A stretch of DNA of 64,000 nucleotides, taken from the IMG/VR virus record IMGVR_UViG_2675903153_000001, positions 3,467 through 67,466 of that record; one strand, written 5' to 3'. A model generated the notes under the pieces. That model saw only the letters and a list, made by a program, of their open reading frames with translations, had not been told where the DNA came from and searched no databases. This stretch comes from a virus. Lineage: Duplodnaviria; Caudoviricetes. The position numbers were made by a program, and so were the translations under genes. Shown here piece by piece: positions 10,279 through 32,806 of the stretch (its first letter is position 1; every line of letters starts with the position of its first letter).

Positions 10279-10289
10279 AATGTCCGAAA

Positions 10290-10436
10290 ACCTGTCCGGG
10301 ACAGGTGGGACGGACACCACCTGTCCCGTCCACATGGGACAGCCGGGGACCGAGCCCATGTTTGCCCAGCTCAGACCTGTCCCCGTCCACCTGGGACACC
10401 CCGGGACACCCCCATCGCCACCACCTGTCCCCGTCC
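10290..10436. repeat. ACCTGTCC iteron-like repeats and palindrome; candidate replication origin
   Basis: ACCTGTCC-G-GGACAGGT (10290-10306); ACCTGTCCC(C)GTCC at 10319, 10375, 10423. Confidence 0.6.
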
Positions 10437-10522
10437 CCCTCCCTCTAAAGGAGGGGACGGGTGGGTCAGGGGCCGTCCGGAACGGCCCGAAACCGCCAGA
10501 CCATCGCCCGGGAGGCGACGTT

Positions 10523-10684
10523 GTGAAGCTGACTATCTCGCCGCTCGCGTGGTTCCTCATCACCGTGTACGGCGCCCTCGGTGCGCTCATCCTCTGGGGC
10601 ACCCTCGAAGACCCCTGGTGGCTCGGCATCGCCGTGTGGCTGCTGCTGCTGGCCCGCTGGCCCGGCGAAGGGCAAGCCGAATGA
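10523..10684 (+). CDS. Small membrane protein
   Basis: GGAGG RBS; two hydrophobic helices. Confidence 0.6.
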   Translation: MKLTISPLAWFLITVYGALGALILWGTLEDPWWLGIAVWLLLLARWPGEGQAE

Positions 10685-16498: not shown

Positions 16499-16936
16499 TT
16501 GGCCGCCTCGGAAGAGCAGAGAGCTAAGACCGCCGAGCGTCGCCGCCGGGCGGTCGCGATGCGTTTTGCCGGCGTCGATTACGAGACGATCGCCGAACGG
16601 CTTGGCTACGCCGGCCGCGCGGCGGCGTGCAAGGACATTCAGCGCGCGCTCGCCCCGAACATCGCTGAGGACGCCGCCCCGGCTACCGACGAACAGCGCG
16701 CGCTCGAACTGATGCGGCTGGACCGGCTACAGGCCGCCGCGTGGCCCGCGGTCCTCAAAGGAGACCTGCGCGCGATCGACACGGTCGTCCGGATCATCTC
16801 GACCCGGGCGAAGATCCGCCGCGACGCCGACGCCGCCGAGCGCGGAGCCCGGCAGGCCACCCCGGTTGCGGAGGTGAGTGGCATTGCCGATCTCACTGAG
16901 CGAATCGCCGCGCGGCGCGGGGCGGCCACGGGTTGA
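16499..16936 (+). CDS. terS: Terminase small subunit
   Basis: RRRRAVAMRFAGVDYETIAERLGY HTH; LELMRLDRLQAAAW; precedes TerL. Confidence 0.75.
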   Translation: MAASEEQRAKTAERRRRAVAMRFAGVDYETIAERLGYAGRAAACKDIQRALAPNIAEDAAPATDEQRALELMRLDRLQAAAWPAVLKGDLRAIDTVVRIISTRAKIRRDADAAERGARQATPVAEVSGIADLTERIAARRGAATG

Positions 16937-18392
16937 GGTTGTCCCGCCGCACGTGTTCAGCCTGGGCGCCGAGGCGGTCGAACTCGCCCGCCGCGCCGGC
17001 CTGGAACTGGACCCGTGGCAGCAGGACGCCCTACGGGTGATGTTGGCCGTCCGCGAGGACGGCAAGTGGGCGTGCTTCGAGTACGGCGAGATCGTGGCTC
17101 GCCAGAACGGCAAGGGCGCGATCCTCGAAGCGCGTGCGCTCGCGGGGCTGTTCCTGCTGGGCGAACGCCTGATCATGTGGAGCGCGCACGAGTACAAGAC
17201 CGCGATGGAAGCGTTTTTGCGGTTGCGGGCGCTCATCCGGAATCTCGAACACGTCGGCGTGATCCCGGCCGACACCGTGAAAACCTGCAACACCAACGGC
17301 GAAGAGAGCTTCGAGATCCGCGCCACCGGCCAGCGGCTCAAGTTCATCGCCCGCTCGAAGAGCAGTGGCCGCGGATTCTCCGGCGACTGCAACCTGATCG
17401 ACGAAAGCTTTGCCTACAGCGCAATCCAGCACGCCGCCCTACTCCCGACGATGAGCGCTCGCCAGAACCCGCAGATCGTGTACACGTCGTCGCCACCCCT
17501 GGACGGGGACAGCGGGGACGTCCTGTTCGCCCTCAAGGCGCGCGCCGAGGCCGGCGGTGACGACTCGCTCGGCTGGCGCGACTGGGGCCCGGCGGCGAAC
17601 CTGGACCAGCTCGACCGGCTCAACCTCGACGACGTCGCGTTGTGGGCCGCCACGAACCCGGCCATGGGCGTCCGGATCACCGAGGAGACGATTCGGCGGG
17701 AACGCCGGTCGATGGGTGCTCCGGAGTTCGCCCGCGAGCGGCTGAGTGTGTGGCCGCGGCAACTGATCGGCGGCGGCGCGATCGACCCCGCGAACTGGGC
17801 GGCCCTCATGGACCCCGAGTCGCGCCGGGACGGCGACGTCGCGATCGGCGTGGATATCGCGCCGGACCGCAACTATGCCGCGATCGGGCTGTATGGCCGC
17901 CGCGCCGACGGGTACGGCCACATGCAGATTGTGGACTACCGCCCGGGGACGGATTGGCTGCTGGACCGCATCCGGGAGTGGCGCGAGGCTGTCAACCCCG
18001 TCGCGATCGCCATGGGCCGGGCCTGCGCGGCGTCCCTGGACGTCGAGTTGGAAAAGGTCGGCATCACCCGGCCCGAAGACCCCGAGAAGCCGCGACGCGG
18101 CGATCTCGCGGTCACCAGCGCCATGGAGATGTCCGCCGCGTGCGGTCAGTTCCTCGATGGAGTCCGGCAGCGCACCGAACGGTACGTCCCCGACGCCGCA
18201 AACGCCCTGGACGCCTCGGTGGCCGGCGCCAAGGTCAAGCAGAACGGCGACACGCTCGTGTGGGCCCGCAAAGAGTCTGCCGCGGACACAAGCCCGCTGG
18301 TGGCCGTCACGGTCGCGCGGTGGGCATGGCACGCCCTGTCGCACCTGGTGGACCAGAACGTCAGTGCCGAACCGACGTTCGCGCTGCTCTGA
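16878..18392 (+). CDS. terL: Terminase large subunit
   Basis: LDPWQ, VARQNGKG, NLIDES, FARERL, GVDIAPDR. Confidence 0.92.
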   Translation: MALPISLSESPRGAGRPRVEVVPPHVFSLGAEAVELARRAGLELDPWQQDALRVMLAVREDGKWACFEYGEIVARQNGKGAILEARALAGLFLLGERLIMWSAHEYKTAMEAFLRLRALIRNLEHVGVIPADTVKTCNTNGEESFEIRATGQRLKFIARSKSSGRGFSGDCNLIDESFAYSAIQHAALLPTMSARQNPQIVYTSSPPLDGDSGDVLFALKARAEAGGDDSLGWRDWGPAANLDQLDRLNLDDVALWAATNPAMGVRITEETIRRERRSMGAPEFARERLSVWPRQLIGGGAIDPANWAALMDPESRRDGDVAIGVDIAPDRNYAAIGLYGRRADGYGHMQIVDYRPGTDWLLDRIREWREAVNPVAIAMGRACAASLDVELEKVGITRPEDPEKPRRGDLAVTSAMEMSAACGQFLDGVRQRTERYVPDAANALDASVAGAKVKQNGDTLVWARKESAADTSPLVAVTVARWAWHALSHLVDQNVSAEPTFALL

Positions 18393-18394
18393 CG

Positions 18395-18895
18395 ATGCGG
18401 ATCGTCGTCATCGCCGGGCCACCGTGCGCCGGCAAGACCACGTTCGCCGACCTGGTCGCCGGTCCCGACGACATCGTCTTGGACTTCGACGTGATCGCCC
18501 GCGAACTGGGGTCACCGGTGCTGTGGAGCCATCCGGAGCCGTGGCGGTCCCGGGCCGAAGCGGACATGCAAGCCGCCGTCCGCTGGGCCGTACTCGAGCC
18601 CAGCGGCGCGACCGCGTGGGTCATCCGCACGGCCCCGCGGCCTCGGCAGCGCGCCGAACTCGCCGCCCGATGGGACGCGGCCGTCTACCTGCTCAACCCG
18701 GGCGAGCGGGAATGCCGCCGGAGAGCACGGGCCGACGGCCGACCTGCCGGGACGTCGACGTCGATCGGTGAATGGTTCAGCCGCTACGCCCCATGGATTC
18801 ACGACCAGGACCCCGGCCGGCTCCGCCCGGAGTGGGCGAGCCCGTCGCCGCCCGTTGACCGGGGAATCGTCTGCGTCGATCCCCGCTACGTCTGA
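18395..18895 (+). CDS. P-loop kinase/AAA-like protein
   Basis: IVVIAGPPCAGKTT, VLDFDVIARELG. Confidence 0.8.
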   Translation: MRIVVIAGPPCAGKTTFADLVAGPDDIVLDFDVIARELGSPVLWSHPEPWRSRAEADMQAAVRWAVLEPSGATAWVIRTAPRPRQRAELAARWDAAVYLLNPGERECRRRARADGRPAGTSTSIGEWFSRYAPWIHDQDPGRLRPEWASPSPPVDRGIVCVDPRYV

Positions 18896-18906: not shown

Positions 18907-19116
18907 ATGGCCGTTCTCGACCGCGTCCCCACCGACCGGATCAACGCCAGGGCCAAGGCTCTTTCGGCCGGACGCGTCGCCCTCACCGTCGTCGCCGCCG
19001 TCCTGTTCGGACTCGGCTGGCTCATTGCCAAGGCGCTCGGTGGTGCGTGGTTCGTCCTGGCGTGGTGCTTCGCCGCAATCCAGGTGGGTTGGAACGACGC
19101 GAGGGGCCGTGACTGA
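18907..19116 (+). CDS. Small membrane protein upstream of portal
   Basis: Hydrophobic hairpin; TGATG coupling to portal. Confidence 0.7.
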   Translation: MAVLDRVPTDRINARAKALSAGRVALTVVAAVLFGLGWLIAKALGGAWFVLAWCFAAIQVGWNDARGRD

Positions 19117-20465
19117 TGGGCCTGCTCGAACGGATCGCACAGTCGCGAAAGCGCCCCGAGGCCCGAGACAACAACACCGTCGGTCTCTCGATGACCGATT
19201 GGCAACGGATGTGGCGGCCCGGCTCACAGGTCGTCTACGACGGCTTGACGTACCAGGCGTACCAGCTCGGTTCGTCCGGGTCGATGAACTCCGGGTTCTA
19301 CGAGTCGAACGCCGTGGTCTACGCCTGCGAAGCCAAGCGCGTATCGGTCTTCTCCGAGGCCAGGTTTCAGTACCAGCAGATGCGCAACGGCCGACCCGGC
19401 GACCTGTTCGGCACGCCGGACCTCGCAATCCTCGAAGAGCCGTGGCCGGGAGCAACCACCCGTGACCTTCTGGTCGCCGCGGAACTCGACGTCGCCACCT
19501 ACGGCAACTCGTATTGGGTCGCCGACCACGACAACTACTTGGTCCGGCTCGACCCCGGCAACGTCAAGATTCTCACCGAGGCCATCGAGGACCAGGTGAC
19601 CGGCCTGCGCGTCGGGGAACGCCTGCTCGGCTACGTCTACATGTCCACCAACGACACCATGACGGTCTACTCACCGCACGAGATCGCGCATTACAAGCCG
19701 ATCCCGTCGCGGTGGCAGTTCCTCGGTCAGTCGTGGATGACGGCGTGCCTACAAGACATCGACGCCGACACACAGATGACCGAGCACAAGCGCGTGTCCT
19801 TGCGCACCGGCGCGAACCTGTCCTATGTGGTCAGCCTTGACAAGTCGATCACGCCAGATCAGTTCGCCGCCTTCGTCGAAAAGTTCCGGGCCGCGACCGA
19901 AGGCCCCGCCAACGCGGGCAAAACGGTGTTCCTCGGCGGCGGCGCGGACATCAAGACCATCTCGCAGACGTTCGGCGACCTCGCGTTGGCCGCCACGCAG
20001 GGCGCGACCGAAACCCGGATCGCCGCGTGCGCCGGCGTCCACCCCGTCATCGTCGGCCTGTCCGAAGGCATGGCCGGCAGCTCTCTCAATGCCGGCAACT
20101 ACACGTCGGCGAAACGGCAGTTCGTGGACGGCACGATGCGCCCGTTGTGGGGCGCGTTCTGCGGCGCGTTTCAGTGGCTGCTCAAGGTTCCCAGCGGTGC
20201 CCGGCTTTGGTACGACGACCGCGACATCGCGTTCCTGCGCGAAGACGTCAAGGACCAAGCCGAAATCCAGGCATCCGACGCGGCGACGATCAGCACGCTG
20301 ATCATGGCCGGGTTCACCCCGGACGCGGTCGTGGAAGCGGTCCACGCAAACGACCTCAAGCGACTCGCGGGCGCCCACTCCGGCCTGTTCTCGGTGCAAC
20401 TCCACCCTCCGGGCGCCGAGCAGGCGCCGCCACCGGCCACCGAAAAGAAGGTGCAAAAGCCATGA
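19116..20465 (+). CDS. Portal protein (HK97 family)
   Basis: NAVVYAC, IAACAGVHPVIVG, GTMRP; position after TerL. Confidence 0.88.
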   Translation: MGLLERIAQSRKRPEARDNNTVGLSMTDWQRMWRPGSQVVYDGLTYQAYQLGSSGSMNSGFYESNAVVYACEAKRVSVFSEARFQYQQMRNGRPGDLFGTPDLAILEEPWPGATTRDLLVAAELDVATYGNSYWVADHDNYLVRLDPGNVKILTEAIEDQVTGLRVGERLLGYVYMSTNDTMTVYSPHEIAHYKPIPSRWQFLGQSWMTACLQDIDADTQMTEHKRVSLRTGANLSYVVSLDKSITPDQFAAFVEKFRAATEGPANAGKTVFLGGGADIKTISQTFGDLALAATQGATETRIAACAGVHPVIVGLSEGMAGSSLNAGNYTSAKRQFVDGTMRPLWGAFCGAFQWLLKVPSGARLWYDDRDIAFLREDVKDQAEIQASDAATISTLIMAGFTPDAVVEAVHANDLKRLAGAHSGLFSVQLHPPGAEQAPPPATEKKVQKP

Positions 20466-21454
20466 ACGCGCCCACCGACCTGTGCCGTTCGGTGCAGTTC
20501 ACGGTCACCCGGGCCGACGCGGAGCCGACCGGCGACGGCCTCACGCTCGAAGGCTACGCGGCCGTATTCGACCAGCCCACCGAAATCGACTCGTGGGAAG
20601 GCTGTTTCCTGGAGAAGATCCGCCGGGGAGCATTCAAGAAGACGATCCGCGAGACCACGCCCGTCATGCAATTCGATCACGGACGGCATCCGCTGATCGG
20701 ATCGATTCCCATCGGCACGATCACTGACCTGCGCGAGGACGACCAGGGCCTGTACGTCGCCGGCCGCATTTCGGACAACTGGCTGATGCAGCCTGTGCGC
20801 GACGCCATCGCCAACAAGTCCGTCAACGGCATGAGCTTCCGGTTCTCGGTGGTGCGGGACGAGTGGCGCGACAACACCGGCACGTTGCTGAAGGCCGGGG
20901 AGCTGCCCGAACTGCTGTGGGACCCCGGTGACCGGGGCCCGCTCGAACGCACACTGATCGAACTCAAGATGGCCGAACTCGGGCCCGTGGTGTTCCCGGC
21001 CTACGTCGGGACTTCCGTGTCGGTCCGCGCGGCCGGCATCGCCGCGACGATTCAGCAGGACGACGAGCTTCGCCGCGAGGTCCGCGCCGCGCTCGCCAGC
21101 GCCCGCACCTCTCACGACGCACCGCCCGAAGACCCGGCCTTGCGCCGCGAAGTCGCTCGGGCCGTGCTGTTCCCCACGACTTCACAGGCCGCGCCGCCCG
21201 AGGGGCACCCGGCTGACCGTTCGCCGTTCGGTCATGACCGAACGGCGAACACGGAGACCGAGCCCGCAGAGGCTCCCGACGCGCCGCCCGAGGGGCACCC
21301 GTCGAACCCCGAAGACGCGCCGCCCGCCGAAGGGCACCCGTCGCCCACTGATCGCGCCGCTCGGCAGCTCTATGCCCGGCGCGCTTACGTGACGCGCAAT
21401 GGCGTCGGAAAGCTAGGCATCAATGCCCGAGGAGAAGAACACGCGGCTTGTTGA
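20462..21454 (+). CDS. HK97-type prohead protease with Pro-rich C-terminal extension
   Basis: LEGYAAVFD, GAFKKTI, FDHG, GMSFRF, VVFPAY; three APP(A)EGHP repeats. Confidence 0.88.
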   Translation: MNAPTDLCRSVQFTVTRADAEPTGDGLTLEGYAAVFDQPTEIDSWEGCFLEKIRRGAFKKTIRETTPVMQFDHGRHPLIGSIPIGTITDLREDDQGLYVAGRISDNWLMQPVRDAIANKSVNGMSFRFSVVRDEWRDNTGTLLKAGELPELLWDPGDRGPLERTLIELKMAELGPVVFPAYVGTSVSVRAAGIAATIQQDDELRREVRAALASARTSHDAPPEDPALRREVARAVLFPTTSQAAPPEGHPADRSPFGHDRTANTETEPAEAPDAPPEGHPSNPEDAPPAEGHPSPTDRAARQLYARRAYVTRNGVGKLGINARGEEHAAC

Positions 21455-22847
21455 GCTGCGTAATCGCCTCAAGGACCTTGACGCGAAGATCCTGCACCTG
21501 GCGGAGAAGGAATCCATCCTCACGCCCGATGAGGAACAGCGTTGGGACGACCTCACCGTTGAACGGGAAACGATTCTTCCCGAGTACGAGAAGCTGGAAG
21601 AGCGCGCAGCCCGCGCGGCGCAGATCCGGAACAAGACGTATCGGCAGATCTCCGGCCTGCCGGACGCCAAGAAGCCGACCGATGAGTGGTTCGGCGTCGA
21701 CGTCCGGACGATGGATTGGCGGACCGCCCGTGACGGCGCGCTCCGGGTCCTCGAAGACCGCGACTCGAACCACATGCTCAACGCCCACCAGGCCGACCTT
21801 CTGGACAACCGCGTCCGGTCGGCCGGATACACCGAACTCGCCCGCCGCATCCTCGTCACCGAGAACGAGCACTACCGCAGCGCGTTCCACAAGAAGATGA
21901 CCCGCGGCAACGACGCGGTTCTCACGCCGGAGGAAAGCATTGCGATGCTCCGGTACGAGGAGTACCGCGCCGCGTCGGAAGGCACCACCACCGCCGGCGG
22001 TTTCGCGATCCCGGTGTTCATCGACCCCAGTGTCATCCTGACCGACCAGGAAACGGACAACCCGTTCCTGAGCATCGCGCGACAGGTCGACGTCAACACC
22101 AACGCGTGGAAGGGTGTCAGCGCGGCCGGCGTTAGCTGGTCGTTCGACGCCGAGGCCACGGCGGTGTCCGACGACAGCATCACCATCGCTCAGCCGAGCG
22201 TGACCGTCTTCACGGCACGCGGCTTTATCCCGTACTCGATCGAGATCGGCGAGGACTGGCCCGGCTTTCAGTCCGAGATGGCTCGACTTCTGGCTGAGGG
22301 CTACGACGAACTTCTCATCGACAAGTTCAGCCGTGGCTCGGGTTCCGGCGAGCCACGCGGCATCCTCACCGCCCTCGGTGCGGCGTCGGGATCGCAGGTC
22401 GTGTCCACTACGGACGGTGCGTTCGGCCAGGAAGACATCTACAAGACGTGGAAGTCCCTGCCGCAGAAGTACCGCCGGAAGGCATCGTGGATGATGTCGG
22501 TCGACATCAACAACCGCATCCGGCAGTTCGGCGCGGCGAACGTGTACCACGCCGCCACTGTCACCCTGCCCGCCGGCGCGGCCGAGGTCCTGTTCAACAA
22601 GCCGGTGTACGAATCCCCGTACTTCCCGGACTTCACCGGCACGACCGGCGTCGAAAACCGCTGCGTCGTCGGCGACTTCTCCAACTACGTGATTGCCCGT
22701 CGTACCGGCATGAACGTGGAGCTTGTTCCGCAGCTGTTCGACGTGACCAACAACCGGCCCACGGGCCAGCGCGGTTGGTTCGCTTACGCACGCATCGGTG
22801 GCAACAGCGTCAACGACGCGGCGTTCCGCCTGCTGCAGAACCAGTAA
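21423..22847 (+). CDS. Major capsid protein (HK97 fold, N-terminal delta domain)
   Basis: Coiled-coil N-terminus, GGFAIPVFID, GDFSNY, GWFAYARIGG. Confidence 0.92.
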   Translation: MPEEKNTRLVELRNRLKDLDAKILHLAEKESILTPDEEQRWDDLTVERETILPEYEKLEERAARAAQIRNKTYRQISGLPDAKKPTDEWFGVDVRTMDWRTARDGALRVLEDRDSNHMLNAHQADLLDNRVRSAGYTELARRILVTENEHYRSAFHKKMTRGNDAVLTPEESIAMLRYEEYRAASEGTTTAGGFAIPVFIDPSVILTDQETDNPFLSIARQVDVNTNAWKGVSAAGVSWSFDAEATAVSDDSITIAQPSVTVFTARGFIPYSIEIGEDWPGFQSEMARLLAEGYDELLIDKFSRGSGSGEPRGILTALGAASGSQVVSTTDGAFGQEDIYKTWKSLPQKYRRKASWMMSVDINNRIRQFGAANVYHAATVTLPAGAAEVLFNKPVYESPYFPDFTGTTGVENRCVVGDFSNYVIARRTGMNVELVPQLFDVTNNRPTGQRGWFAYARIGGNSVNDAAFRLLQNQ

Positions 22848-22937: not shown

Positions 22938-23318
22938 ATGGCTGTCGTCTACGCGACCTTCTCAACGTGGGTCACCCCGACCGTCCAGATCGAGCGGGGT
23001 GAAATCTGGGACGCTGACGACCCGGTCGTGGCCAGTCACCCGGACTGGTTCACGTCCGACCCGAGCGCGTTCGCCCGTCGCTCAGCCGCCGACGTCTACA
23101 ACGCGGGGAACGCTGAGACTGGCCGGGTCGAAAAGGCGACCGCCGAACCCGGCGAGAAGCGCGCTCTCAGCAAGACCGATCAGGCTTTCGACGAAGCCGC
23201 GAGCCTGCGCGAAGAACTCGAGAACGCCGACGTCAAGGTGGACGGTCGATGGGGACTCGACCGGCTTCGCGAGGAATACGCCAAGATCAACGAAGCCGCC
23301 GAGACCACCGACGAATGA
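22938..23318 (+). CDS. Head-associated hypothetical protein
   Basis: GEIWDADDPVVASHPDWF; C-terminal VKVDGRWGLDRLREE; follows capsid. Confidence 0.65.
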   Translation: MAVVYATFSTWVTPTVQIERGEIWDADDPVVASHPDWFTSDPSAFARRSAADVYNAGNAETGRVEKATAEPGEKRALSKTDQAFDEAASLREELENADVKVDGRWGLDRLREEYAKINEAAETTDE

Positions 23319-24691
23319 CGGGGTCTGTCTGCCTCGCGTACGTCCACGACATCGACGTGGCGTACAGCTTCCACGACTCGGTGATCAACCTGCTGATGTT
23401 CGACGCGTCCACCCGCGGCCGCGTCCTCGAAGGCGGGTACATCGCCGTCCGGTGCGCGCGGAGCTCCGACCTGGTCGACGCCCGCAACCACGCCGTGAAG
23501 ACATTCCTCGAACGGCCGGCCGACTGGCTGTTCTTCGTGGACACCGATATGGGTTTCGCACCGGACACCATCGACCGCCTCATCGAGGTCGCCGACCCGA
23601 AGACCCGCCCCATCGTCGGCGGCCTGTGCTTCGCCCAGAAAGAGACCGCCCAAGATGGCCTATCGGGCTACCGCACCGCACCCCGGGTGACGATCCTCGA
23701 TTGGGTCGACACCGACGGCGGGCCGACGTTCATGGGTCGCACCCGATACCCGGTCAACAGCGTCATCAAGTGCGCCGGCACGGGCGCCGCGTGCATCCTC
23801 ATCCACCGGTCCGTCCTGGAACGCATCCGGGACGAGAACGGTCCCGTGTGGTTCGACCGCGTACCCGGCGGCGGCGGCAAGCTGCTCGGCGAAGACGTGT
23901 CGTTCTGCGTCCGCGCTGGCGCACTCGACATCCCCGTCCACGTGCACACCGGCGTCCGGACAACGCACCTGAAAAGCGCCTGGCTCGGCGAAGCCGACTT
24001 CTGGGACGCCGCGACCGCACCGCCCGCAACCGAGCCGACCGCAGTCGTCGTCCCGGTCATGCGCCGTCCCCAGAACGCGGAACCGTTCATGGCCACCCTG
24101 CGGGCGACGACCGGACTGGCGACCGTCTACGCCGTGGCCGACGTCGCCGACACCGAGACCGCCGACGCATGGCGGCACGCCGGCGCCCAAGTCATTGACT
24201 ATGACGGCGATACGCCCGGGACGTTCTCGGAAAAGATGAACACCGGCTACCGAGAGACGACCGAGCCGTGGATCTTCCTGACCGGCGATGACGTCGCGTT
24301 CCGCCCGGGATGGCTCGACCACGCCCAGGCAACCGCCGGGGACGATCTCCACGTCATCGGCACCAACGACCTGGGAAACCCCGCCGTCATCGCCGGCGAA
24401 CACGCAACACACATCCTGATCCGCCGCGCCTATGTGGACGAGACCGGCGCAAGTTGGGACGGCCCGAAGGTCCTCGCGCACGAAGGCTACCGACATTGGT
24501 TCGTGGATAACGAGATCGTGACCGCAGCTCGCCGACGCGGCGTCTGGGGCATGGCACTGGCGTCCGTCGTCGAGCACCTGCACCCGCGGTGGGGCAAGGC
24601 CGACACCGACGACGTGTACGCGCTCGGCGAGTCCCGTGCGATCCCGGACCGGCACCTGTTCGAGAGGCGCGCACGCAAGCATGTTCAGTGA
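23315..24691 (+). CDS. Glycosyltransferase with two tandem GT-A domains
   Basis: Domain 1 DARN...FFVDTDMGF...GEDVSFC...H; domain 2 VVVPVMRR...FLTGDDVAF...HWFVDNE...VEHLHP. Confidence 0.85.
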   Translation: MTGSVCLAYVHDIDVAYSFHDSVINLLMFDASTRGRVLEGGYIAVRCARSSDLVDARNHAVKTFLERPADWLFFVDTDMGFAPDTIDRLIEVADPKTRPIVGGLCFAQKETAQDGLSGYRTAPRVTILDWVDTDGGPTFMGRTRYPVNSVIKCAGTGAACILIHRSVLERIRDENGPVWFDRVPGGGGKLLGEDVSFCVRAGALDIPVHVHTGVRTTHLKSAWLGEADFWDAATAPPATEPTAVVVPVMRRPQNAEPFMATLRATTGLATVYAVADVADTETADAWRHAGAQVIDYDGDTPGTFSEKMNTGYRETTEPWIFLTGDDVAFRPGWLDHAQATAGDDLHVIGTNDLGNPAVIAGEHATHILIRRAYVDETGASWDGPKVLAHEGYRHWFVDNEIVTAARRRGVWGMALASVVEHLHPRWGKADTDDVYALGESRAIPDRHLFERRARKHVQ

Positions 24692-25313
24692 CCCGGCCAC
24701 GTTCAGGACAGCGGAACCGTTCCCACACGTCGTCATCGACGACCTGTGGGACGCCGCGCGCCTGCGGGCTATCGCCGCCGAGTTCCCGCCAGCCACCGAC
24801 CCACGATGGGTGACCTACCCCGACCCCAAGGAACGCGGCAAGCGCTGCGGCGGCCCCGACATGTGGGGCCCCGAGACGCATCGATGGTTCTCCGACATGC
24901 GAACCCCGGAGATGGCCCGGGAACTGGAGACCTTGACCGGAATCCAATCCCTCTCCGCCGACACCCTCGGCGGCGGGATGCATATGACATCCGACGGCGG
25001 CCGACTCGCATCGCACGTCGATTTCAATATCCACCCGCATGACCCGACACGAGAGCGGCGCGTCAACGTCCTCGTCTTTCTCAACCCCTTGTGGCGAAAC
25101 GAGTGGGGCGGCGCGCTGGTCCTCGGCGAACACCGCGACGTCGAGATCACCCCGACGTTCAACCGGACCGTGATCTTCGAAACCTCGGACCGGTCATGGC
25201 ACGGCCACCCCGACCCGATTGCGGGCGAGCACCACCGCAAGTCGCTGGCCTGCTACTTCTACGCACCGCGCCGCACCGAGGCCAGCAACCCGCACTCAAC
25301 GATTTGGCGGTGA
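24681..25313 (+). CDS. 2OG-Fe(II) oxygenase (prolyl-4-hydroxylase-like)
   Basis: PFPHVVIDD, HVD (HxD), RRVNVLVFLN, PTFNRTVIF, WHG, RKSLACYFY. Confidence 0.88.
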   Translation: MFSDPATFRTAEPFPHVVIDDLWDAARLRAIAAEFPPATDPRWVTYPDPKERGKRCGGPDMWGPETHRWFSDMRTPEMARELETLTGIQSLSADTLGGGMHMTSDGGRLASHVDFNIHPHDPTRERRVNVLVFLNPLWRNEWGGALVLGEHRDVEITPTFNRTVIFETSDRSWHGHPDPIAGEHHRKSLACYFYAPRRTEASNPHSTIWR

Positions 25314-25317
25314 GGCG

Positions 25318-25821
25318 GTGCACGCCGAGGCACACGCGTGGGTGGAATACCACCGCACATTTCAACGGGTCGCCGTCCTCGACATTGGCGGCCGTGACAT
25401 CAACGGCTCCGTGCGAGACCTCTTCCCGAACGCCGACTACACCGTACTCGATATCCGCCCCGGCGCCCGCGTCCACATCATCGCCGACGCCGCTAGCTGG
25501 ACCCCGGACCGGGAATACGACGTCGTGGTCTGCTGCGAAGTGTTCGAGCACACCGACGTCTGGCCGGAAATTTGCGCAACCGCGTACAAGGCCGCCGCAC
25601 CCGGTGGGAAGTTCATCGTCACGTGCGCCGGCCCCGGACGGGGCGAACACTCCGCGATCGACGGATCGGGCGGACTACACCCGGGCGAGCACTACGCGAA
25701 CGTGTCTGCTGACGCGCTCGGGCGCGTCCTGCGCGACTGCGGATTCGTCGACGTGATCACCGACCAGCGCACCGGCCCGTGCGACACCCGCGCCGTCGCC
25801 TACAAACCTCGGACCGCCTAA
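25318..25821 (+). CDS. Class I SAM-dependent methyltransferase
   Basis: VLDIGGRDING, YDVVVCCEVFEH, PGGKFIVT. Confidence 0.85.
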   Translation: MHAEAHAWVEYHRTFQRVAVLDIGGRDINGSVRDLFPNADYTVLDIRPGARVHIIADAASWTPDREYDVVVCCEVFEHTDVWPEICATAYKAAAPGGKFIVTCAGPGRGEHSAIDGSGGLHPGEHYANVSADALGRVLRDCGFVDVITDQRTGPCDTRAVAYKPRTA

Positions 25822-25837: not shown

Positions 25838-26737
25838 ATGGCGCTTGTCGCGGCCTACTCCATGGACGAATCCGGTGACACCGTCATCGACCTTTCCGGC
25901 AACGCCCACGATTTCGCCCTGACGTCCGGCGCGACCCGGGTCACCGGCCACACCCTCGGCGGACTTCGCCCCAACGGGGCCACGCCGCTTACCCTGCCGA
26001 ACATCGGCCAGACCGACGAACGCACGGTCATGTTGTGGGCGAAAGGCAGCATCCCGGACGCGTGGCCGATCCAGTGGTACGACCCGACCGCAGACGGCGG
26101 GGCAGGGTCCGGCGCGTGGGGAATCCTCAGCAATATGGGGAACATCTGCATACAAGGCCGCAACGGCGCCGACGAATTCGCCCGGCCGCTCACCGCATGG
26201 CCGGACACGACGAATTGGCATCACGTGGCCGGCACGTTCGGCGGCAACGCCGTGAAGCTGTACCTCGACGGCGTGTTGGCGGACCAGCAGACGCTAACCG
26301 GCCCGCTCCGCATCGCCGACGCCCCGACGTTGTTCGGGTGGACCGGCACGGATTCCTATGACGACCTACGGATCTACAACACAGCCCTAGAGCCCGCGGG
26401 CATCGTCGCCGCCATGAACACTCCGGTCGCGTCGTCCGACCTCGCGTCCGCCGCCGCGCTCGCCATCGACGCCACGTTCGTCAACCGGGTGTGCGCCGCA
26501 ATGCAGCAATACGGGGTCATCGTCGGAAAGGCGATCCTCGGGGCCGGCTCGCCGTCCGCCGCGGATAAGGCCCGCTTGATCCTTGCGCAAGCCTGCCTTG
26601 CCGACCACGCGACCTACACCGACCGGTTCGTCTGGGCTCTCGCGTCCGACGCCGAGGTGGACAACACCGTCGACGACGCGACGATCCGATCAAAGGTCGC
26701 TGACGTCTACAACCTCATCGCCGGCGTGCCGGTGTAG
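25838..26737 (+). CDS. LamG/concanavalin-like domain protein with helical C-terminal domain
   Basis: AYSMDE, TVMLWAK, WHHVAGTF, LYLDG, YDDLRIYNTAL. Confidence 0.8.
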   Translation: MALVAAYSMDESGDTVIDLSGNAHDFALTSGATRVTGHTLGGLRPNGATPLTLPNIGQTDERTVMLWAKGSIPDAWPIQWYDPTADGGAGSGAWGILSNMGNICIQGRNGADEFARPLTAWPDTTNWHHVAGTFGGNAVKLYLDGVLADQQTLTGPLRIADAPTLFGWTGTDSYDDLRIYNTALEPAGIVAAMNTPVASSDLASAAALAIDATFVNRVCAAMQQYGVIVGKAILGAGSPSAADKARLILAQACLADHATYTDRFVWALASDAEVDNTVDDATIRSKVADVYNLIAGVPV

Positions 26738-27925: not shown

Positions 27926-28318
27926 ATGACCGTCGGAATCAGCTCCGCGAACCTCGCTAACAAGTGGCTGGACATGTTGGCGGGCACGGCTTTCACTGCG
28001 CCGACGACCTGTGCAGTCAAGCTGCACACCGGCGACCCGGGTTCAGCCGGGACCACCAACGCATCGTCGGTCACCACCAGGCCGACCGTGTCGTGGTCTG
28101 CGGCGTCCGCCGGTTCCAAGTCGATGTCGAACACGCCGAGCTGGGCGAGCTGGGCCGGCACCAACGGGGAGGTTGTCTCGCACATCTCGGCGTGGGATGC
28201 AACCTCGGCGGGAAACTTCCTGTTCTCCGCCGCCCTGACGGCGTCGAAAACCGTGAACACCGGAGACACGCTGAATCTGACGAGTCTGACGTTCGCGTTC
28301 ACCCCGATCGCGGCGTGA
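27926..28318 (+). CDS. Fibre/decoration-like structural protein
   Basis: VKLHTGDPGSAGT...SHISAWDA.SAGNFLF..AL..SKTV.TGD pattern typical of phage fibre-associated proteins. Confidence 0.65.
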   Translation: MTVGISSANLANKWLDMLAGTAFTAPTTCAVKLHTGDPGSAGTTNASSVTTRPTVSWSAASAGSKSMSNTPSWASWAGTNGEVVSHISAWDATSAGNFLFSAALTASKTVNTGDTLNLTSLTFAFTPIAA

Positions 28319-28799: not shown

Positions 28800-29765
28800 A
28801 TGGCGAGGTTCGGCCGTACCTTCCCGATCCCGCGGCGCCCGTTCTACCTTCTCGCCAGTAGTGCCAAGACCGCCGATGCGGTTGTCGCCGAAGCCGCCGC
28901 TATCACGGCCGATACGACGACCACCAAGCCGGTGGACGCAGCGGTCACCGAGACCGCCACCGTCACCGCCGCCGCGACGTGCACCAAGGCCGTCGCGGCG
29001 TCGGCCACCACCACGGCCACGATCACCGCCGACACCGCCGTGACCAAGCCGGTCACCAGCTCGGCCACCACGACGGCCACCATCACAGCCGACACGGCCG
29101 TGACGAAGCCGGTGACCACCTCGGTCACCGCGACGGCCACCGTCACCGCAGACACGACCACCGCCAAGCCCGCGGCGGCCTCGGTCACGACGACCGTCAC
29201 GATCACCGCGTCCGCGACGGTGACCAAGCCGACCGACGCCGCGGTCACGACCACCGCGACCATCACGGCGGACGCCACGATCGGCGCCGCGCCCAAGACC
29301 ATCGACGCGGCCGTCACCGAGACGGCCACCGTCACCGCGGACGGGCAGGCCACCAAGCCCGTCGACGCGTTCACCACCGCCACGGCCGGGATCACCGCAG
29401 CTGCTCAAGGCACCCGGCCGGCCGTCGCCACCCTCACCACGACCGCCGCTCTTTCTGGCACCGCGGCGACGACCAAGCCCGAAGACGCGTCGGTCACCAC
29501 GACGGCGACGATCACGGCAACGGCCACGGTGATCAAGGGCGTCACCGCCGCAGCCACCATCAGCGCGACCGTGACGACGACCGCCGCGATCCCGACGGCG
29601 ACCGGCGGGTTCGTCTGCCAGGACTTCACCACCGTCGTCACCGTCGACGCGCTCACCGGCGCAGCGACCATCGACGCCTACGCGACGACCGCATTCATCA
29701 CCCTCACCGACGCCACCGCCACCGTCGTGACCGACGACGCCACCGCCACGATCTGCGGGAGGTGA
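28800..29765 (+). CDS. Thr/Ala/Val-rich repeat protein (12 repeats of 20 aa)
   Basis: Consensus KPVxAxVTTTATITADxTxT at residues 23-265. Confidence 0.8.
   Translation: MARFGRTFPIPRRPFYLLASSAKTADAVVAEAAAITADTTTTKPVDAAVTETATVTAAATCTKAVAASATTTATITADTAVTKPVTSSATTTATITADTAVTKPVTTSVTATATVTADTTTAKPAAASVTTTVTITASATVTKPTDAAVTTTATITADATIGAAPKTIDAAVTETATVTADGQATKPVDAFTTATAGITAAAQGTRPAVATLTTTAALSGTAATTKPEDASVTTTATITATATVIKGVTAAATISATVTTTAAIPTATGGFVCQDFTTVVTVDALTGAATIDAYATTAFITLTDATATVVTDDATATICGR
28866..29594 (+). repeat. Degenerate 60-nt coding tandem repeat, 12 copies
   Basis: Eleven 20-aa units and one 23-aa unit, each starting K/R. Confidence 0.85.
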
Positions 29766-30193: not shown

Positions 30194-31015
30194 ATGGCGA
30201 TCGACGTTGGCGACCTCTACCGCTGTTCGTTCACCCTCACGTCCCCGGCGGGCGGCAACGTCAACGCCGGGACGATGACGTTGACGATCACCCTTCCTGA
30301 CCAGACCACAACGGTCGTGGGCCCGGTGGCGCCCACCACCACCGGCGTCTACGTCTACGACTACCAAACCGTCCAGGCAGGACGGCACACAGCGCATTGG
30401 GTCGGCACCGGCGCGAACCCCGGCGCCTACGTCGAGGTCTTCGACGTACGGCCCGCAGACGCCCCCTACCTGGTCAGCCTCGCCGACATCAAGGCCCAGA
30501 CGAATATCAGCAACACCGTCTCGGACGAAGAGCTGCGGACATACCTCGAAGCCGCAACCGGCGTCATCGAACGCCACCTCGGCCAAGCGGTGGTGCGACG
30601 GTCACGGACCGAGGAACACCTCATCCCCTCCGGCGGCGGCCTGGTCCTCAACTGGACACCCGTCGTCTCGGTGACCTCTCTCGCCACGGTCGACGGCTCA
30701 TACACCTGGAATCCGGCGACCCTGTACGCGACGCCGGCCGGCTTGGTCACGTGCCCGCTCGGGACTGCCCCGTACGGCCATGTCGCCGTGACCTACGTGG
30801 CCGGCACGTCCCTGGTGCCCGAGGAATACGGGCTGGCCGCCCGGATCATCGTGCAGCACCTCTGGGAAACCCAACGTGGCGCCGCCGGCGCCCCGCGGGC
30901 TGGCGGGCTCGGCGACACGCTCGGCATCAGCCGGTCGGCCGGGTCCGGACTCGGCTACGCCATCCCCAACCGCGCCCTCGAACTGCTCGGCACCGGACTG
31001 CCGGGGGTCGCATGA
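30194..31015 (+). CDS. Head-tail adaptor (gp6-like) with N-terminal Ig-like domain
   Basis: LVSLADIKAQTNI...DEELRTYLEAATGVIERH; VTYVAG; AARIIVQHLWETQRG. Confidence 0.8.
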   Translation: MAIDVGDLYRCSFTLTSPAGGNVNAGTMTLTITLPDQTTTVVGPVAPTTTGVYVYDYQTVQAGRHTAHWVGTGANPGAYVEVFDVRPADAPYLVSLADIKAQTNISNTVSDEELRTYLEAATGVIERHLGQAVVRRSRTEEHLIPSGGGLVLNWTPVVSVTSLATVDGSYTWNPATLYATPAGLVTCPLGTAPYGHVAVTYVAGTSLVPEEYGLAARIIVQHLWETQRGAAGAPRAGGLGDTLGISRSAGSGLGYAIPNRALELLGTGLPGVA

Positions 31016-31777: not shown

Positions 31778-32806
31778 GTGACCACGGGAAGCGGCCTCGA
31801 CGCTCAGATCGGGTTCGGCCAGGAAAGTGTGTGGGGGACGCCCGTCACCCCGACGCGGTTCGTCGAATTCGATTCGGAGAGCATGAAGTTCGATCCGACC
31901 TGGCTCGAACCGAACGCACTCCACAAGGGACTGAAGTACAAGCGACTCAGCCGCGCGACGATCTCGCGCAGCTCCGTGTCCGGCGATGTCACGATGGACG
32001 TCAACACGCTCGGCATGGGGATGTTGGTCCGGAACATGCTGGGCTCTACCACAACGACGACGACTCTGGTGTCCGGATCGGCGTACAAGCAAATCCATGT
32101 GCCCGGAGACTTCCGCGGCCTCGGCCTAACCGTCCAGGTTGGACGGCCCGAGCCGTCGACCGGAACCGTGCGTCCGTTCACTTACGAAGGGTGCAAGGTC
32201 GTCAAATGGGAGTTTTCGTTGAAGGACAACGACACTCCCAGCCTCAAGCTGACCTTTGACGGCCAGGCTGAATCGACGGCGACGGCGCTGACGGCGGCGT
32301 CGTACCTCAGTGGGTCCAGCACCTACAACTTTTCGCAAGCCACGCTAAAGCTGGGCGGCACGCCTGCCACGGCAAGCGGCGAGACGACCATCACGTCCGG
32401 CGTCACGGTCGCGACGATCATCAAGGAAATCACGATCTCTGGCACGGTCCCGATGGCAACCGACCGGTACGGAGTCGGCAACAGCGGCCAAAAGGCTGAG
32501 CCTCTCGAAAACGGGATTCCCATGATCACAGGGAAGCTCTCGGCCGAGTTCAATAAGACCGAGCTGTACGACCTGTACACCGCCGCTTCGGGGACCGCGC
32601 TACAGCTCGACTTGACTGGTGCCGCAATCGGAAGCGCGAACTACCTGTTCAGCTTCATTATCCCGGCGATCAAGCTCAAGACCGCCGCGCCGACGGTGGG
32701 TGGTCCGGACATCGTGCCCATGAGCACCGACTTCGAGGGCTACAGCAACGAAGTCGATCCGGTCATTCAGTGCAAGATCGTCTCCACCGAGTCGACGACG
32801 GTGTAG
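31778..32806 (+). CDS. Major tail (tube) protein
   Basis: GSGLDAQIGFGQESVWGTPVTPTRF; Thr-rich, 342 aa. Confidence 0.85.
   Translation: MTTGSGLDAQIGFGQESVWGTPVTPTRFVEFDSESMKFDPTWLEPNALHKGLKYKRLSRATISRSSVSGDVTMDVNTLGMGMLVRNMLGSTTTTTTLVSGSAYKQIHVPGDFRGLGLTVQVGRPEPSTGTVRPFTYEGCKVVKWEFSLKDNDTPSLKLTFDGQAESTATALTAASYLSGSSTYNFSQATLKLGGTPATASGETTITSGVTVATIIKEITISGTVPMATDRYGVGNSGQKAEPLENGIPMITGKLSAEFNKTELYDLYTAASGTALQLDLTGAAIGSANYLFSFIIPAIKLKTAAPTVGGPDIVPMSTDFEGYSNEVDPVIQCKIVSTESTTV

What the first reader, a model, noticed from the sequence alone, without database searches (positions are those of the whole stretch)
23315..25821. PLOD-like hydroxylate/glycosylate/methylate cassette inserted right after the capsid gene
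Seen: a tandem GT-A/GT-A protein, an overlapping (11 nt) 2OG-Fe(II) oxygenase with HxD...H...R motifs and a class I methyltransferase sit inside the late structural operon, between capsid and head-tail genes. Established: eukaryotic LH3/PLOD3 and mimivirus L230 have GT-GT-dioxygenase order and hydroxylate then glycosylate protein residues; some mycobacteriophages glycosylate virion proteins with phage GTs. Inference: a virion-modification pathway that hydroxylates Pro/Lys (or a sugar), adds sugars and O-methyl-caps them. I know of no phage example of hydroxylation-primed virion glycosylation.
Basis: partly seen in the sequence, partly recalled or inferred. Interest (0 to 1): 0.8.

Follow-up and report, generated by a model that had tools for sequence, protein, structure and literature searches.

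The report
Phage head sugar-coating genes with oxygenase
A prophage in a high-GC actinomycete carries, right after its capsid gene, genes for two fused sugar-adding enzymes, an iron/2-oxoglutarate oxygenase and a methyltransferase that most likely coat the virus head with a modified sugar; close relatives add the sugars without the oxygenase, so it is an optional extra and not the step that prepares the attachment site.

Summary
Window 23315-25821 encodes a fused GT-A/GT-A glycosyltransferase, a 2OG-Fe(II) oxygenase (11-nt overlap) and a class I methyltransferase. They are translationally coupled inside the head operon of a ~60-kb prophage.

The "PLOD-like, hydroxylation-primed" reading is not supported.
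- The oxygenase folds like PHD/Tpa1/OGFOD1-type enzymes and the nucleoside-sugar oxygenases PasI/PolD (Z 18-20). Lysyl hydroxylases score Z 11.5-11.9.
- Among phages found through the capsid, capsid-p126-GT is always present. GT2, MT and oxygenase are added in nested fashion (3/7/3/1 loci).
- The closest relative has GT-GT joined directly to MT. The oxygenase gene is a clean ~650-bp indel.
- Three related phage records at least 90% complete lack it entirely.
- Only the MT co-varies with the oxygenase.
- GT-GT relatives are fused to rhamnosyl O-methyltransferase, LicD or MT domains.
- Cellular oxygenase homologues lie in polysaccharide loci.

Best reading: a virion (head) glycosylation cassette, analogous to Corndog/Che8, with an optional oxygenase+MT glycan-tailoring pair of unknown chemistry. 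No acceptor or glycan has been shown.

The same oxygenase-MT pair occurs in Streptomyces Zukovirus phages. This scan has already noted such cassettes on other DNA (e1-3486998, e1-3426761).

Verdict: new variant of a known kind, moderate interest.

The parts
21423..22847 (+). Major capsid protein (HK97 type, 474 aa). It heads the conserved capsid-p126-GT triad and is a candidate glycan acceptor.
   Evidence: PF05065 at 7e-31 and phrog_10. 32 IMG/VR relatives at 51-84% identity all keep p126+GT downstream where the contig allows.
22938..23318 (+). p126, a conserved small head-module protein of unknown role. Its stop overlaps the GT-GT start by 4 nt (ATGA).
   Evidence: Weak phrog_9538 match at 2.6e-7. 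Found between capsid and GT in all relatives. Homologous to gp7 of Gordonia phage RavenCo17, a phage without GTs, at E 5e-8.
23315..24691 (+). Fused tandem GT-A/GT-A glycosyltransferase (458 aa). The N domain (about residues 1-235, DxD = D76/D78) is the invariant core of the cassette. The C domain (about 236-458, DD = D325/D326) is GT2-like.
   Evidence: AF2 model has pLDDT 92.7. N domain vs STIV A197: Z 19.6, rmsd 2.4, 174 aligned. C domain vs PcManGT: Z 19.1; also TarS, WrtF and ppGalNAc-T1. The family has 1211 representatives at E<=1e-30, both fused and split forms.
24681..25313 (+). 2OG-Fe(II) oxygenase (210 aa) of the PHD/Tpa1-like clade. It is an optional, gene-sized insertion between GT-GT and MT.
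   Evidence: PF13640 at 6e-17. Triad H112/D114/H176 and R186 are invariant. AF2 pLDDT 92.9. Fold neighbours. Clean indel relative to L140 at window 24661-25318.
25318..25821 (+). Class I SAM methyltransferase (167 aa from GTG 25318), partner of the oxygenase and probable sugar O-methyltransferase.
   Evidence: PF13489 at 2e-11 and phrog_32762 at 2e-17. The start aligns with the ATG of the L140 orthologue. It is the only family co-varying with the oxygenase, 22/25 vs 8/23 loci. A GT-GT-Methyltransf_23 fusion exists (P0204).
25838..26737 (+). LamG/concanavalin-like protein directly after the MT. Possible head decoration or glycan-binding protein; its link to the cassette is unproven.
   Evidence: PF13385 at 1.6e-13. 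Also follows the MT in L140 at 3e-102.
27926..28318 (+). Gp80-like head-fibre/head protein. In several relatives it directly follows the GT cassette, and it is a candidate acceptor.
   Evidence: PF23140 at 4e-28 and phrog_240 at 7e-28. Seen next to the cassette in L036, L037, L143, L145, L146, L152, L154 and L158.
28800..29765 (+). Thr/Ala-rich protein with about 11 repeats of 20 aa, most containing T-K-P. A candidate mucin-like glycan acceptor, but not conserved with the cassette.
   Evidence: Composition is 98 Thr, 81 Ala and 13 Pro of 321 residues, with the repeat register shown. A homologue was found only in L036.

Best explanation
This is a phage-encoded glycosylation cassette built into the head-morphogenesis operon. 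It most likely puts a short, tailored glycan on a head protein of the virion: the capsid, or a head fibre or decoration protein. Inferred steps: the N-terminal GT-A domain attaches the first sugar to the protein, the C-terminal GT2-like domain adds a second sugar, and the methyltransferase O-methylates a sugar. The oxygenase is a late, optional add-on that works with the methyltransferase to modify the glycan or its nucleotide-sugar precursor, for example by hydroxylating or oxidising a sugar carbon or substituent. It does not create the attachment site. Shown here: the domain identities, intact catalytic motifs, translational coupling, the nested presence/absence pattern, the clean indel, and the coupling of oxygenase with MT. 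Inferred only: the acceptor, the sugars and the oxygenase reaction.
For: Location. In about 35 IMG/VR loci the order is capsid-p126-GT-GT-oxygenase-MT. In L025-L028 the oxygenase sits between terminase/portal or portal/protease while GT-GT stays after capsid+p126, so the parts always stay in the head module.
Modularity. Capsid-selected relatives have GT-N alone (3), +GT-C (7), +MT (3), or +oxygenase+MT (1).
Indel. The closest relative, L140 (capsid 84% identical), has GT-GT overlapping the MT start, and the oxygenase gene is a ~650-bp indel.
Absence. There is no oxygenase anywhere in 5 related viral records, 3 of them at least 90% complete; the positive control found it in 3/3.
Partner. Only the MT family co-varies with the oxygenase, 22/25 vs 8/23 loci, and no candidate protein-substrate family does.
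Portability. All MT-linked phage oxygenases form one clade (SH-aLRT 99). The window's copy groups with the Zukovirus/Streptomyces-prophage type, where the GTs are unrelated (GT-B + GT2 +/- NTP_transf_3), not with the copy of its nearest capsid relative.
Tailoring slot. GT-GT relatives are fused C-terminally to RMNT_CmcI rhamnosyl O-methyltransferase, Methyltransf_23, LicD or a CTP-dep_RFKase-like domain.
Cellular homologues. They lie beside GT2, hexapeptide acyltransferase, RmlA+RgpF and Wzx-type genes.
Fold. The neighbours include PasI and PolD, which act on nucleoside sugar acids (Z 18.6-18.8). The GT N domain is closest to STIV A197, a viral GT-A.
Precedent. Mycobacteriophages glycosylate capsid and tail-tube proteins with their own GTs (PMC12363180, citing Freeman et al. 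2023). Corndog carries MT gp35 + GTs gp36-38 between its portal and capsid genes.
Against: No glycan, acceptor or enzyme activity has been measured for any member. The oxygenase's best fold matches are mostly protein prolyl hydroxylases (Tpa1, OGFOD1, PPHD, PhyA, PHD2), so a protein substrate remains possible. Cellular homologues are only 30-45% identical and fall outside the phage clade, so their context is weak evidence. Presence/absence counts come from related, non-independent and partly fragmentary metagenomic contigs. The second cassette architecture often lies outside the structural operon, so gene position alone does not prove a virion target. There is no sequence homology to the Corndog enzymes.
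Confidence: 0.55

Rival explanations
1. Hydroxylation-primed glycosylation. The oxygenase hydroxylates Pro or Lys on a virion protein, and the GT-GT enzyme attaches sugars to that new hydroxyl, as in LH3/PLOD, mimivirus L230 or the Skp1 PhyA-Gnt1-PgtA pathway.
For: The gene order GT-GT-oxygenase with an 11-nt overlap. The oxygenase fold is closest to protein prolyl hydroxylases, including Dictyostelium PhyA, the enzyme that primes Skp1 glycosylation (Z 18.8). A T-K-P repeat protein lies 3 kb downstream.
Against: Highly similar GT-GT orthologues (E 1e-126 in L140) work in phages without any oxygenase. The oxygenase co-varies with the MT, not with the GTs or with any protein family. The same oxygenase clade serves cassettes with unrelated GTs. 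The LH domains are distant (Z 11.5-11.9). The Thr-repeat protein is present in only one other locus.
Confidence: 0.1
2. A parallel protein modification. The oxygenase hydroxylates a residue (Pro, Lys, Asp or Asn) of a head protein or of a host protein such as EF-Tu or ribosomal uS12, independently of the glycan. It simply rides in the same operon.
For: The top fold neighbours are Tpa1/OGFOD1 (uS12 prolyl hydroxylases) and PPHD (EF-Tu prolyl hydroxylase). In L025-L028 the oxygenase lies apart from the GTs, among portal and protease genes.
Against: Within the phage clade (SH-aLRT 99) it is almost always adjacent to the MT and to at least one GT, in two unrelated cassette architectures. Cellular homologues lie in polysaccharide loci. 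It occupies the slot that holds sugar-tailoring domains in relatives.
Confidence: 0.17
3. The target is not the virion. The cassette modifies a host cell-envelope glycopolymer (for receptor masking or superinfection exclusion) or builds a small glycosylated metabolite.
For: Cellular oxygenase homologues sit in polysaccharide clusters. The second architecture lies near lysis genes or genome ends, outside the structural operon, in Zukovirus and in the S. canus prophage.
Against: Here the genes are translationally coupled within the late head operon, with no internal promoter-like site. There is no flippase, GtrA-like or membrane GT in the cassette. Capsid-p126-GT is conserved across capsids 51-84% identical. 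The cassette parts are interleaved with portal, protease and capsid genes.
Confidence: 0.13
4. DNA hypermodification. The oxygenase oxidises a methylated base, the GTs glycosylate it, and the MT caps it, as in phage TET/5mYOX-GT systems.
For: The prophage encodes a C5 cytosine DNA methylase at 3015-4301. Phage 5mYOX+GT systems exist (bioRxiv 10.1101/2023.12.21.572611).
Against: The oxygenase matches PF13640/PF13661, with no Tet_JBP match, and no TET/JBP structure is among the best 50 fold matches. The MT is a small-molecule-type class I enzyme (PF13489; nearest solved structures are phosphoethanolamine N-MTases). The DNA methylase is 20 kb away in the early region. The cassette is embedded in head genes.
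Confidence: 0.03

Closest known systems
Mycobacteriophage virion O-glycosylation gene sets (Corndog gp35 methyltransferase + gp36-38 glycosyltransferases; Che8 gp108-110; Myrna). Source: Freeman et al. 2023, as cited in PMC12363180 and PMC12582341.
   Same: Phage-encoded GT-A glycosyltransferases with a methyltransferase, placed inside the head part of the structural operon of an actinobacteriophage (Corndog: between portal and capsid). The likely target is the phage's own capsid or tail proteins.
   Different: No detectable sequence homology to the Corndog proteins. Here the two GTs are fused. Corndog has no oxygenase in that block. Nothing has been shown experimentally for this cassette.
LH3/PLOD3, ColGalT1 and mimivirus L230/R699 (collagen Lys hydroxylation followed by Gal-Glc addition)
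   Same: Tandem GT-A domains plus a 2OG-Fe(II) dioxygenase in the order GT, GT, oxygenase. GT-GT retrieves ColGalT1, LH3 and R699 in Foldseek at E about 1e-11 to 1e-12.
   Different: Separate genes, not one polypeptide. Those matches have TM 0.26-0.31 and rmsd 16-20 A, and other tandem GT-A enzymes (K4CP, LARGE1, heparosan synthase) score alike. The oxygenase is not of the LH type (Z 11.5-11.9 vs 18-20). The oxygenase is dispensable for the GTs in relatives.
Skp1 hydroxyproline glycosylation in Dictyostelium/Toxoplasma (PhyA, then Gnt1, the bifunctional PgtA, then AgtA); pathway recalled from established knowledge
   Same: A cytoplasmic PHD-type oxygenase together with soluble GTs, including a two-domain GT. 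The oxygenase model aligns to DdPhyA with Z 18.8, rmsd 2.6 over 182 residues.
   Different: There the hydroxylase is obligatory for glycosylation; here it is optional. No Gnt1-like (GT60) match was seen. An MT partner is characteristic here but not there.
PasI / PolD, 2OG oxygenases of nucleoside-antibiotic pathways (PDB 9ei6/9ei7, 9blq)
   Same: The same small PHD-like fold and size (Z 18.6-18.8; profile E 3.7e-5 to 9ei6). They act on a sugar-acid phosphate of a nucleoside, which shows that this structural neighbourhood includes sugar-directed enzymes.
   Different: 15-17% identity, a natural-product context, and a C-C cleaving reaction. Nothing indicates the same chemistry here.
Streptomyces phages KimJongPhill and Zuko (Zukovirus) genes 110-107, and related Streptomyces, Amycolatopsis, Actinosynnema and Saccharothrix prophage cassettes
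   Same: The same oxygenase clade (53-67% identical) and a homologous MT, always with GTs.
   Different: The GTs are unrelated (a GT-B plus small GT2/NTP_transf_3-like proteins), the position is outside the head operon, and the oxygenase is annotated only as 'hypothetical protein'.
STIV A197 glycosyltransferase (PDB 2c0n)
   Same: The best structural match of the N-terminal GT domain, which is the invariant core of the cassette (Z 19.6, rmsd 2.4, 174 of 191 residues, 17% identity). It is also a virus-encoded minimal GT-A.
   Different: It comes from an archaeal virus, is a single domain, and its own acceptor is not firmly established.

Membership tests
PLOD/LH3-type lysyl hydroxylase-glycosyltransferase | GT, accessory GT-like and LH dioxygenase domains in one polypeptide | tested here: not met
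   Three separate ORFs; only the two GT-A domains are fused. No GT-GT-oxygenase fusion was seen among the 10 longest of the best 150 family representatives.
PLOD/LH3-type lysyl hydroxylase-glycosyltransferase | Dioxygenase domain of the lysyl-hydroxylase type | tested here: not met
   LH3 (8zgc_A) scores Z 11.5 and mimivirus L230 LH (6ax6) Z 11.9. Tpa1, PPHD, OGFOD1, PhyA, PHD2, PasI and PolD score Z 18.4-19.7. The PDB profile search hits only OGFOD1, P4H and PHD entries.
PLOD/LH3-type lysyl hydroxylase-glycosyltransferase | Glycosylation depends on prior hydroxylation, so the hydroxylase always accompanies the GTs | tested here: not met
   This is a comparative test only. 13 of 14 capsid-selected relatives have the GT(s) without the oxygenase. 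The junction with L140 is a clean indel. Five whole related viral records have none (control).
PLOD/LH3-type lysyl hydroxylase-glycosyltransferase | GT domains specifically related to LH3/ColGalT1 | tested here: inconclusive
   Foldseek E about 1e-11 to 1e-12, but TM 0.26-0.29 and rmsd 16-20 A, shared with other tandem GT-A proteins. VIA Z 14.0 at rmsd 15 A.
Prolyl-hydroxylase-like 2OG-Fe(II) oxygenases (PF13640; PHD/P4H/Tpa1 clade) | HxD...H iron triad and a basic residue binding the 2OG C5 carboxylate | tested here: met
   H112, D114, H174/H176 and R186-x-S188 are invariant in 49 homologues. PF13640 at 6.4e-17, above the curated cut-off.
Prolyl-hydroxylase-like 2OG-Fe(II) oxygenases (PF13640; PHD/P4H/Tpa1 clade) | Double-stranded beta-helix fold closest to PHD/Tpa1-type enzymes | tested here: met
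   AF2 model pLDDT 92.9. Tpa1 scores Z 19.7 (rmsd 2.6, 188 aligned), PPHD 19.4, OGFOD1 19.1, PhyA 18.8. Foldseek E 7e-10 to 1e-7.
Prolyl-hydroxylase-like 2OG-Fe(II) oxygenases (PF13640; PHD/P4H/Tpa1 clade) | Peptidyl-proline is the substrate | not testable with these tools
   Fold neighbours of equal score (PasI, PolD) act on nucleoside sugars. The genomic context points to glycans.
TET/JBP 5-methylpyrimidine dioxygenase + DNA glycosyltransferase systems | Tet_JBP-type oxygenase next to a DNA C5 methyltransferase | tested here: not met
   Only PF13640/PF13661 match. The C5 DNA methylase lies 20 kb away at 3015-4301. The cassette MT is PF13489.
Actinobacteriophage virion glycosylation cassettes (Corndog/Che8 type) | Phage-encoded GT-A glycosyltransferase(s), often with a methyltransferase, inside or beside the virion structural operon | tested here: met
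   The Corndog layout was checked.
Actinobacteriophage virion glycosylation cassettes (Corndog/Che8 type) | Sequence homology to the characterised Corndog enzymes | tested here: not met
   BLASTP of the MT vs gp35 and of GT-GT vs gp36, gp37 and gp38 gave a best E of 0.044. The relation is one of analogy, not orthology.
Actinobacteriophage virion glycosylation cassettes (Corndog/Che8 type) | Glycans demonstrated on capsid or tail proteins | not testable with these tools
   Needs virion mass spectrometry or a glycoprotein stain.

The most novel reading that the evidence does not exclude
The oxygenase-methyltransferase pair is a mobile two-enzyme unit that phages plug into otherwise unrelated glycosylation cassettes. 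It would make a hydroxylated or oxidised, methylated sugar not yet described on any virus particle. A less likely version is that it hydroxylates prolines (for example the T-K-P repeats of the Thr-rich head-fibre-like protein) and so creates hydroxyproline on a bacteriophage virion.
Probability: 0.4. Interest if true: 0.6.

Novelty: new variant of a known kind. Interest (0 to 1): 0.45.

Why it matters
Virion glycosylation has been shown in only a few mycobacteriophages, where it alters antibody recognition. That makes it relevant to phage therapy and to how phages present their surface.

This analysis shows three things:
- A large, uncultured lineage of high-GC phages keeps a glycosyltransferase fixed next to its capsid gene.
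- That lineage varies the glycan through a "tailoring slot" holding a second GT, a methyltransferase, LicD or a rhamnosyl O-methyltransferase domain, or an oxygenase+MT pair.
- A PHD-fold 2OG oxygenase has been recruited repeatedly into that slot.

The oxygenase family has no characterised member. Finding its substrate would add a reaction to a fold known mainly for protein prolyl hydroxylation. It may also bear on the many unexplained 2OG-Fe(II) oxygenase genes of environmental phages.

The prophage sits in a culturable-type actinomycete, and the same pair is in cultured Streptomyces phages (KimJongPhill, Zuko), so the question can be tested directly.

Tried and rejected
- PLOD-likeness: rejected on fold ranking and on the dispensability of the oxygenase.
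- Homology to the Corndog MT and GTs: none found.
- DNA modification: rejected on family assignment and gene position.
- Thr-rich T-K-P repeat protein as the conserved substrate: a homologue exists in only one other locus, L036, so it cannot be the general acceptor.
- p126 as a cassette-specific acceptor: it has a homologue in Gordonia phage RavenCo17, which has no GTs, so it is ordinary head-module content. It could still be glycosylated.
- A protein family gained together with the oxygenase: only the MT stood out.
- NCBIfam: nothing above the cut-offs.
- ESM Atlas on the oxygenase and on p126: no functional lead.
- Literature: searches for a phage prolyl hydroxylase or 2OG oxygenase combined with virion glycosylation found no study of such a cassette. 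Freeman et al. 2023 is not held in the library and is cited only through secondary papers. A search for PolD/PasI papers found nothing useful.
- Cultured phages: tblastn of GT-GT against the phage collection gave only two weak partial hits, so this head-module lineage has no cultured representative in that collection.
- GT-GT-oxygenase fusion proteins: none among the ten long family representatives scanned. The check was not exhaustive.

Full report
**Setting**

The window is G000:C11:330589-394588 of a 10.3-Mb genome with about 68-70% G+C. It holds a prophage of about 60 kb.
- Early genes include a C5 DNA methylase (3015-4301), a PD-(D/E)XK nuclease and an AAA_25 helicase/primase-like protein.
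- A late operon runs from terminase (16878-18392) through portal (19116-20465, PF04860), S78 prohead protease (20462-21454), capsid (21423-22847, PF05065), connector (30197-31015), tail tube (31778-32806) and tape measure (33847-37740) to Dit and Gp37-like tail-tip genes.
- A lysin lies at 41792-42832 and a tyrosine integrase at 58744-59994. G+C rises to about 74% after 60 kb.

**Observation**

The three genes are as described.
- GT-GT (23315-24691, 458 aa): two GT-A domains, each with a conserved DxD/DD motif (D76-x-D78; D325-D326) across 32 homologues.
- Oxygenase (24681-25313, 210 aa): starts 11 nt before the GT-GT stop. It matches PF13640 at 6e-17, and H112, D114, H174/H176, R186 and S188 are invariant in 49 homologues.
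- Methyltransferase: PF13489 at 2e-11. It most likely starts at GTG 25318, four bases after the oxygenase stop. That codon aligns with the ATG of the orthologue in L140.

A conserved 126-aa gene (22938-23318) lies between the capsid gene and GT-GT and overlaps GT-GT by 4 nt. No promoter- or terminator-like sites above chance interrupt the block.

**What kind of oxygenase**

A profile of the family hits only prolyl hydroxylases in the PDB: OGFOD1 at 5e-9, then P4H and PHD entries.

The AF2 model (pLDDT 92.9) aligns best to a tied group at Z 18.4-19.7 (Foldseek agrees):
- Tpa1, PPHD, OGFOD1, Dictyostelium PhyA, Trichoplax PHD and PHD2.
- PasI and PolD, at the same level. These act on a nucleoside sugar-acid phosphate.

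Lysyl hydroxylase domains (LH3, mimivirus L230) score only Z 11.5-11.9. No TET/JBP enzyme is among the best 50. The enzyme is therefore PHD/Tpa1-like, not PLOD-like, and the fold alone does not say whether the substrate is a protein or a sugar.

**What kind of GTs**

The AF2 model has pLDDT 92.7.
- The N domain is closest to STIV A197, a minimal viral GT-A (Z 19.6, rmsd 2.4).
- The C domain is a GT2-type domain: PcManGT Z 19.1, also TarS, WrtF and ppGalNAc-T1.
- Foldseek returns ColGalT1, LH3 and mimivirus R699 first, but at TM 0.26-0.31 and rmsd 16-20 A. K4CP, LARGE1 and heparosan synthase score alongside them. This means any protein with two GT-A domains, not PLOD specifically.

**Relatives and how the cassette varies**

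Oxygenase homologues are numerous: 676 at E<=1e-3 in the word-indexed search. They are rare in the host's family, found in 1 of 200 other genomes sampled.

Scans of IMG/VR and of species-representative genomes gave 131 loci. Two phage architectures emerge.
- Type 1, as here: capsid-p126-GT-GT-oxygenase-MT, in about 35 viral contigs. In L025-L028 the oxygenase sits between terminase and portal, or between portal and protease, while GT-GT stays after capsid+p126. The parts are therefore always embedded in the head module.
- Type 2: GT-B, oxygenase, sometimes NTP_transf_3, MT, GT2. This occurs in Streptomyces phages KimJongPhill and Zuko (oxygenase 53-58% identical, annotated hypothetical) and in Streptomyces, Amycolatopsis, Actinosynnema and Saccharothrix prophages. 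It usually lies outside the head operon.

**The decisive comparison**

Searching with the capsid, not the oxygenase, gives an unbiased sample of the same head-module lineage: 32 loci with capsids 51-84% identical.

Every locus with room downstream has p126 and the N-type GT. Among the 14 with enough flank on both sides:
- 3 have GT-N alone
- 7 have GT-N + GT-C
- 3 add the MT
- 1 adds oxygenase + MT

The closest relative, L140 (capsid 84% identical, GT-N E 6e-126), has the GT-GT 3' end overlapping the MT start codon. Relative to it, window 24661-25318, which is the oxygenase gene, is a clean indel.

Five related viral records were searched whole and contain no oxygenase; three are at least 90% complete, one with terminal repeats. 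The same profile finds it in 3 of 3 positive controls.

GTs this similar cannot depend on a hydroxyl group made by an enzyme their phages lack. The priming model is therefore not supported.

**What the oxygenase goes with**

In 25 oxygenase-positive and 23 oxygenase-negative type-1 loci, the only gene family that tracks the oxygenase is the MT (22/25 vs 8/23). No candidate protein-substrate family does. These loci are related, so the figure is descriptive, not a test.

A quick IQ-TREE tree shows three things:
- All MT-linked phage oxygenases fall in one clade (SH-aLRT 99), apart from the cellular homologues.
- The window's copy lies in the mostly type-2 subclade (SH-aLRT 96), next to an Amycolatopsis prophage copy and L009/L012.
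- L052/L141, its nearest capsid relative that has an oxygenase, carries a copy from the other subclade.

The gene has therefore entered the same GT-GT|MT junction more than once. It also moves between cassettes whose GTs are unrelated, always keeping the MT as partner.

**Evidence that the downstream slot tailors sugar**

The GT-GT family is large, with 1211 cluster representatives at E<=1e-30, both fused and split forms.

Long members carry a C-terminal extra domain:
- RMNT_CmcI rhamnosyl O-methyltransferase (P0126)
- Methyltransf_23, the MT family found here (P0204)
- LicD (P0123)
- a CTP-dep_RFKase-like domain (P0125)

Cellular oxygenase homologues (30-45% identical) lie beside:
- GT2 and a hexapeptide acyltransferase (L095)
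- two GT2 genes and a second oxygenase paralogue (L132)
- RmlA plus RgpF rhamnan-synthesis genes (L105)

Across about 43 such loci, GT2, GT1, MT and Wzx-type families are the commonest neighbours.

**Mechanism proposed**

Shown here: domain identities, intact catalytic motifs, translational coupling in the head operon, the nested modularity, the indel, the oxygenase-MT coupling, and the fusions with sugar-tailoring domains.

Inferred:
- GT-N attaches a first sugar to a head protein. Candidates are the capsid, the Gp80-like fibre protein at 27926-28318 that abuts the cassette in several relatives, p126, or in this prophage the Thr-rich repeat protein at 28800-29765.
- GT-C extends the glycan.
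- The MT O-methylates a sugar.
- The oxygenase, working with the MT, hydroxylates or oxidises the glycan or its nucleotide-sugar precursor.

My estimates: about 0.7 that the target is the virion, about 0.85 that the oxygenase does not prime the GTs, and about 0.6 vs 0.25 that it acts on a sugar and not on a protein residue.

**Comparison with what is known**

The nearest known system is mycobacteriophage virion glycosylation. Corndog has MT gp35 and GTs gp36-38 between portal and capsid. Capsid and tail-tube glycosylation by phage GTs is reported in PMC12363180, citing Freeman et al. 2023, which I could not read.

The present proteins are not homologous to Corndog's, and Corndog's block has no oxygenase. 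I found no paper on a phage cassette that combines a PHD-like oxygenase with GTs and an MT.

This scan has noted the same kind of cassette on other DNA: e1-3486998 (the Zukovirus-type operon) and e1-3426761 (an MT/2OG dioxygenase/GT island, there with a PhyH-type oxygenase).

**Verdict**

This is a new variant of a known kind: a phage virion glycosylation cassette with an added, mobile oxygenase-MT tailoring pair of unknown chemistry. Interest is moderate at 0.45. The cassette is widespread, unstudied and testable in cultured Streptomyces phages, but the striking "hydroxylation-primed" idea does not hold.

Noticed in passing
window 28800-29765: A 321-aa protein that is 31% Thr and 25% Ala, with about 11 repeats of 20 aa, most containing T-K-P. 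It is tightly packed between a 155-aa and a 115-aa ORF, downstream of a Gp80-like head-fibre gene. A homologue was found only in viral contig L036, where it also follows MT and Gp80. It could be a mucin-like glycosylated head fibre.
   Followed up: partly
window 21194-21340: The C-terminal tail of the S78 prohead protease carries three PP(A)EGHP repeats in a Pro/Glu/Ala-rich linker, just before the overlapping capsid start.
   Followed up: no
window 18395-18895: A small P-loop kinase-like ORF (weak AAA_33/AAA_18 matches, below the cut-offs) sits between the large terminase and portal genes, an unusual place for such a gene.
   Followed up: no
proteins P0126, P0204, P0123, P0125: Relatives of GT-GT are fused C-terminally to a rhamnosyl O-methyltransferase (RMNT_CmcI), Methyltransf_23, LicD or a CTP-dep_RFKase-like domain. 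This marks a variable glycan-tailoring slot after the tandem GT.
   Followed up: partly
L132:8504-9256 and about 10001-10660 (Halioxenophilus sp.): Two tandem paralogues of the oxygenase family lie next to two GT2 genes in a cellular genome. In L105 (Rhizobium MAG) the oxygenase follows RmlA and RgpF.
   Followed up: partly
window 25838-26737: A LamG/concanavalin-like protein directly follows the MT, here and in the closest relative L140. It may be a decoration or lectin-like head protein linked to the cassette.
   Followed up: no
window 3015-4301 and 58744-59994: The prophage has a C5 cytosine DNA methylase in its early region. A tyrosine integrase lies at its right end, after which G+C rises from about 66% to about 74%, marking the likely prophage boundary near 60 kb.
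   Followed up: partly
L025-L028 (IMG/VR contigs): In these relatives the oxygenase gene lies between terminase and portal, or between portal and protease, several kb from the GT-GT gene. It stays in the head module even when unlinked from the GTs.
   Followed up: partly
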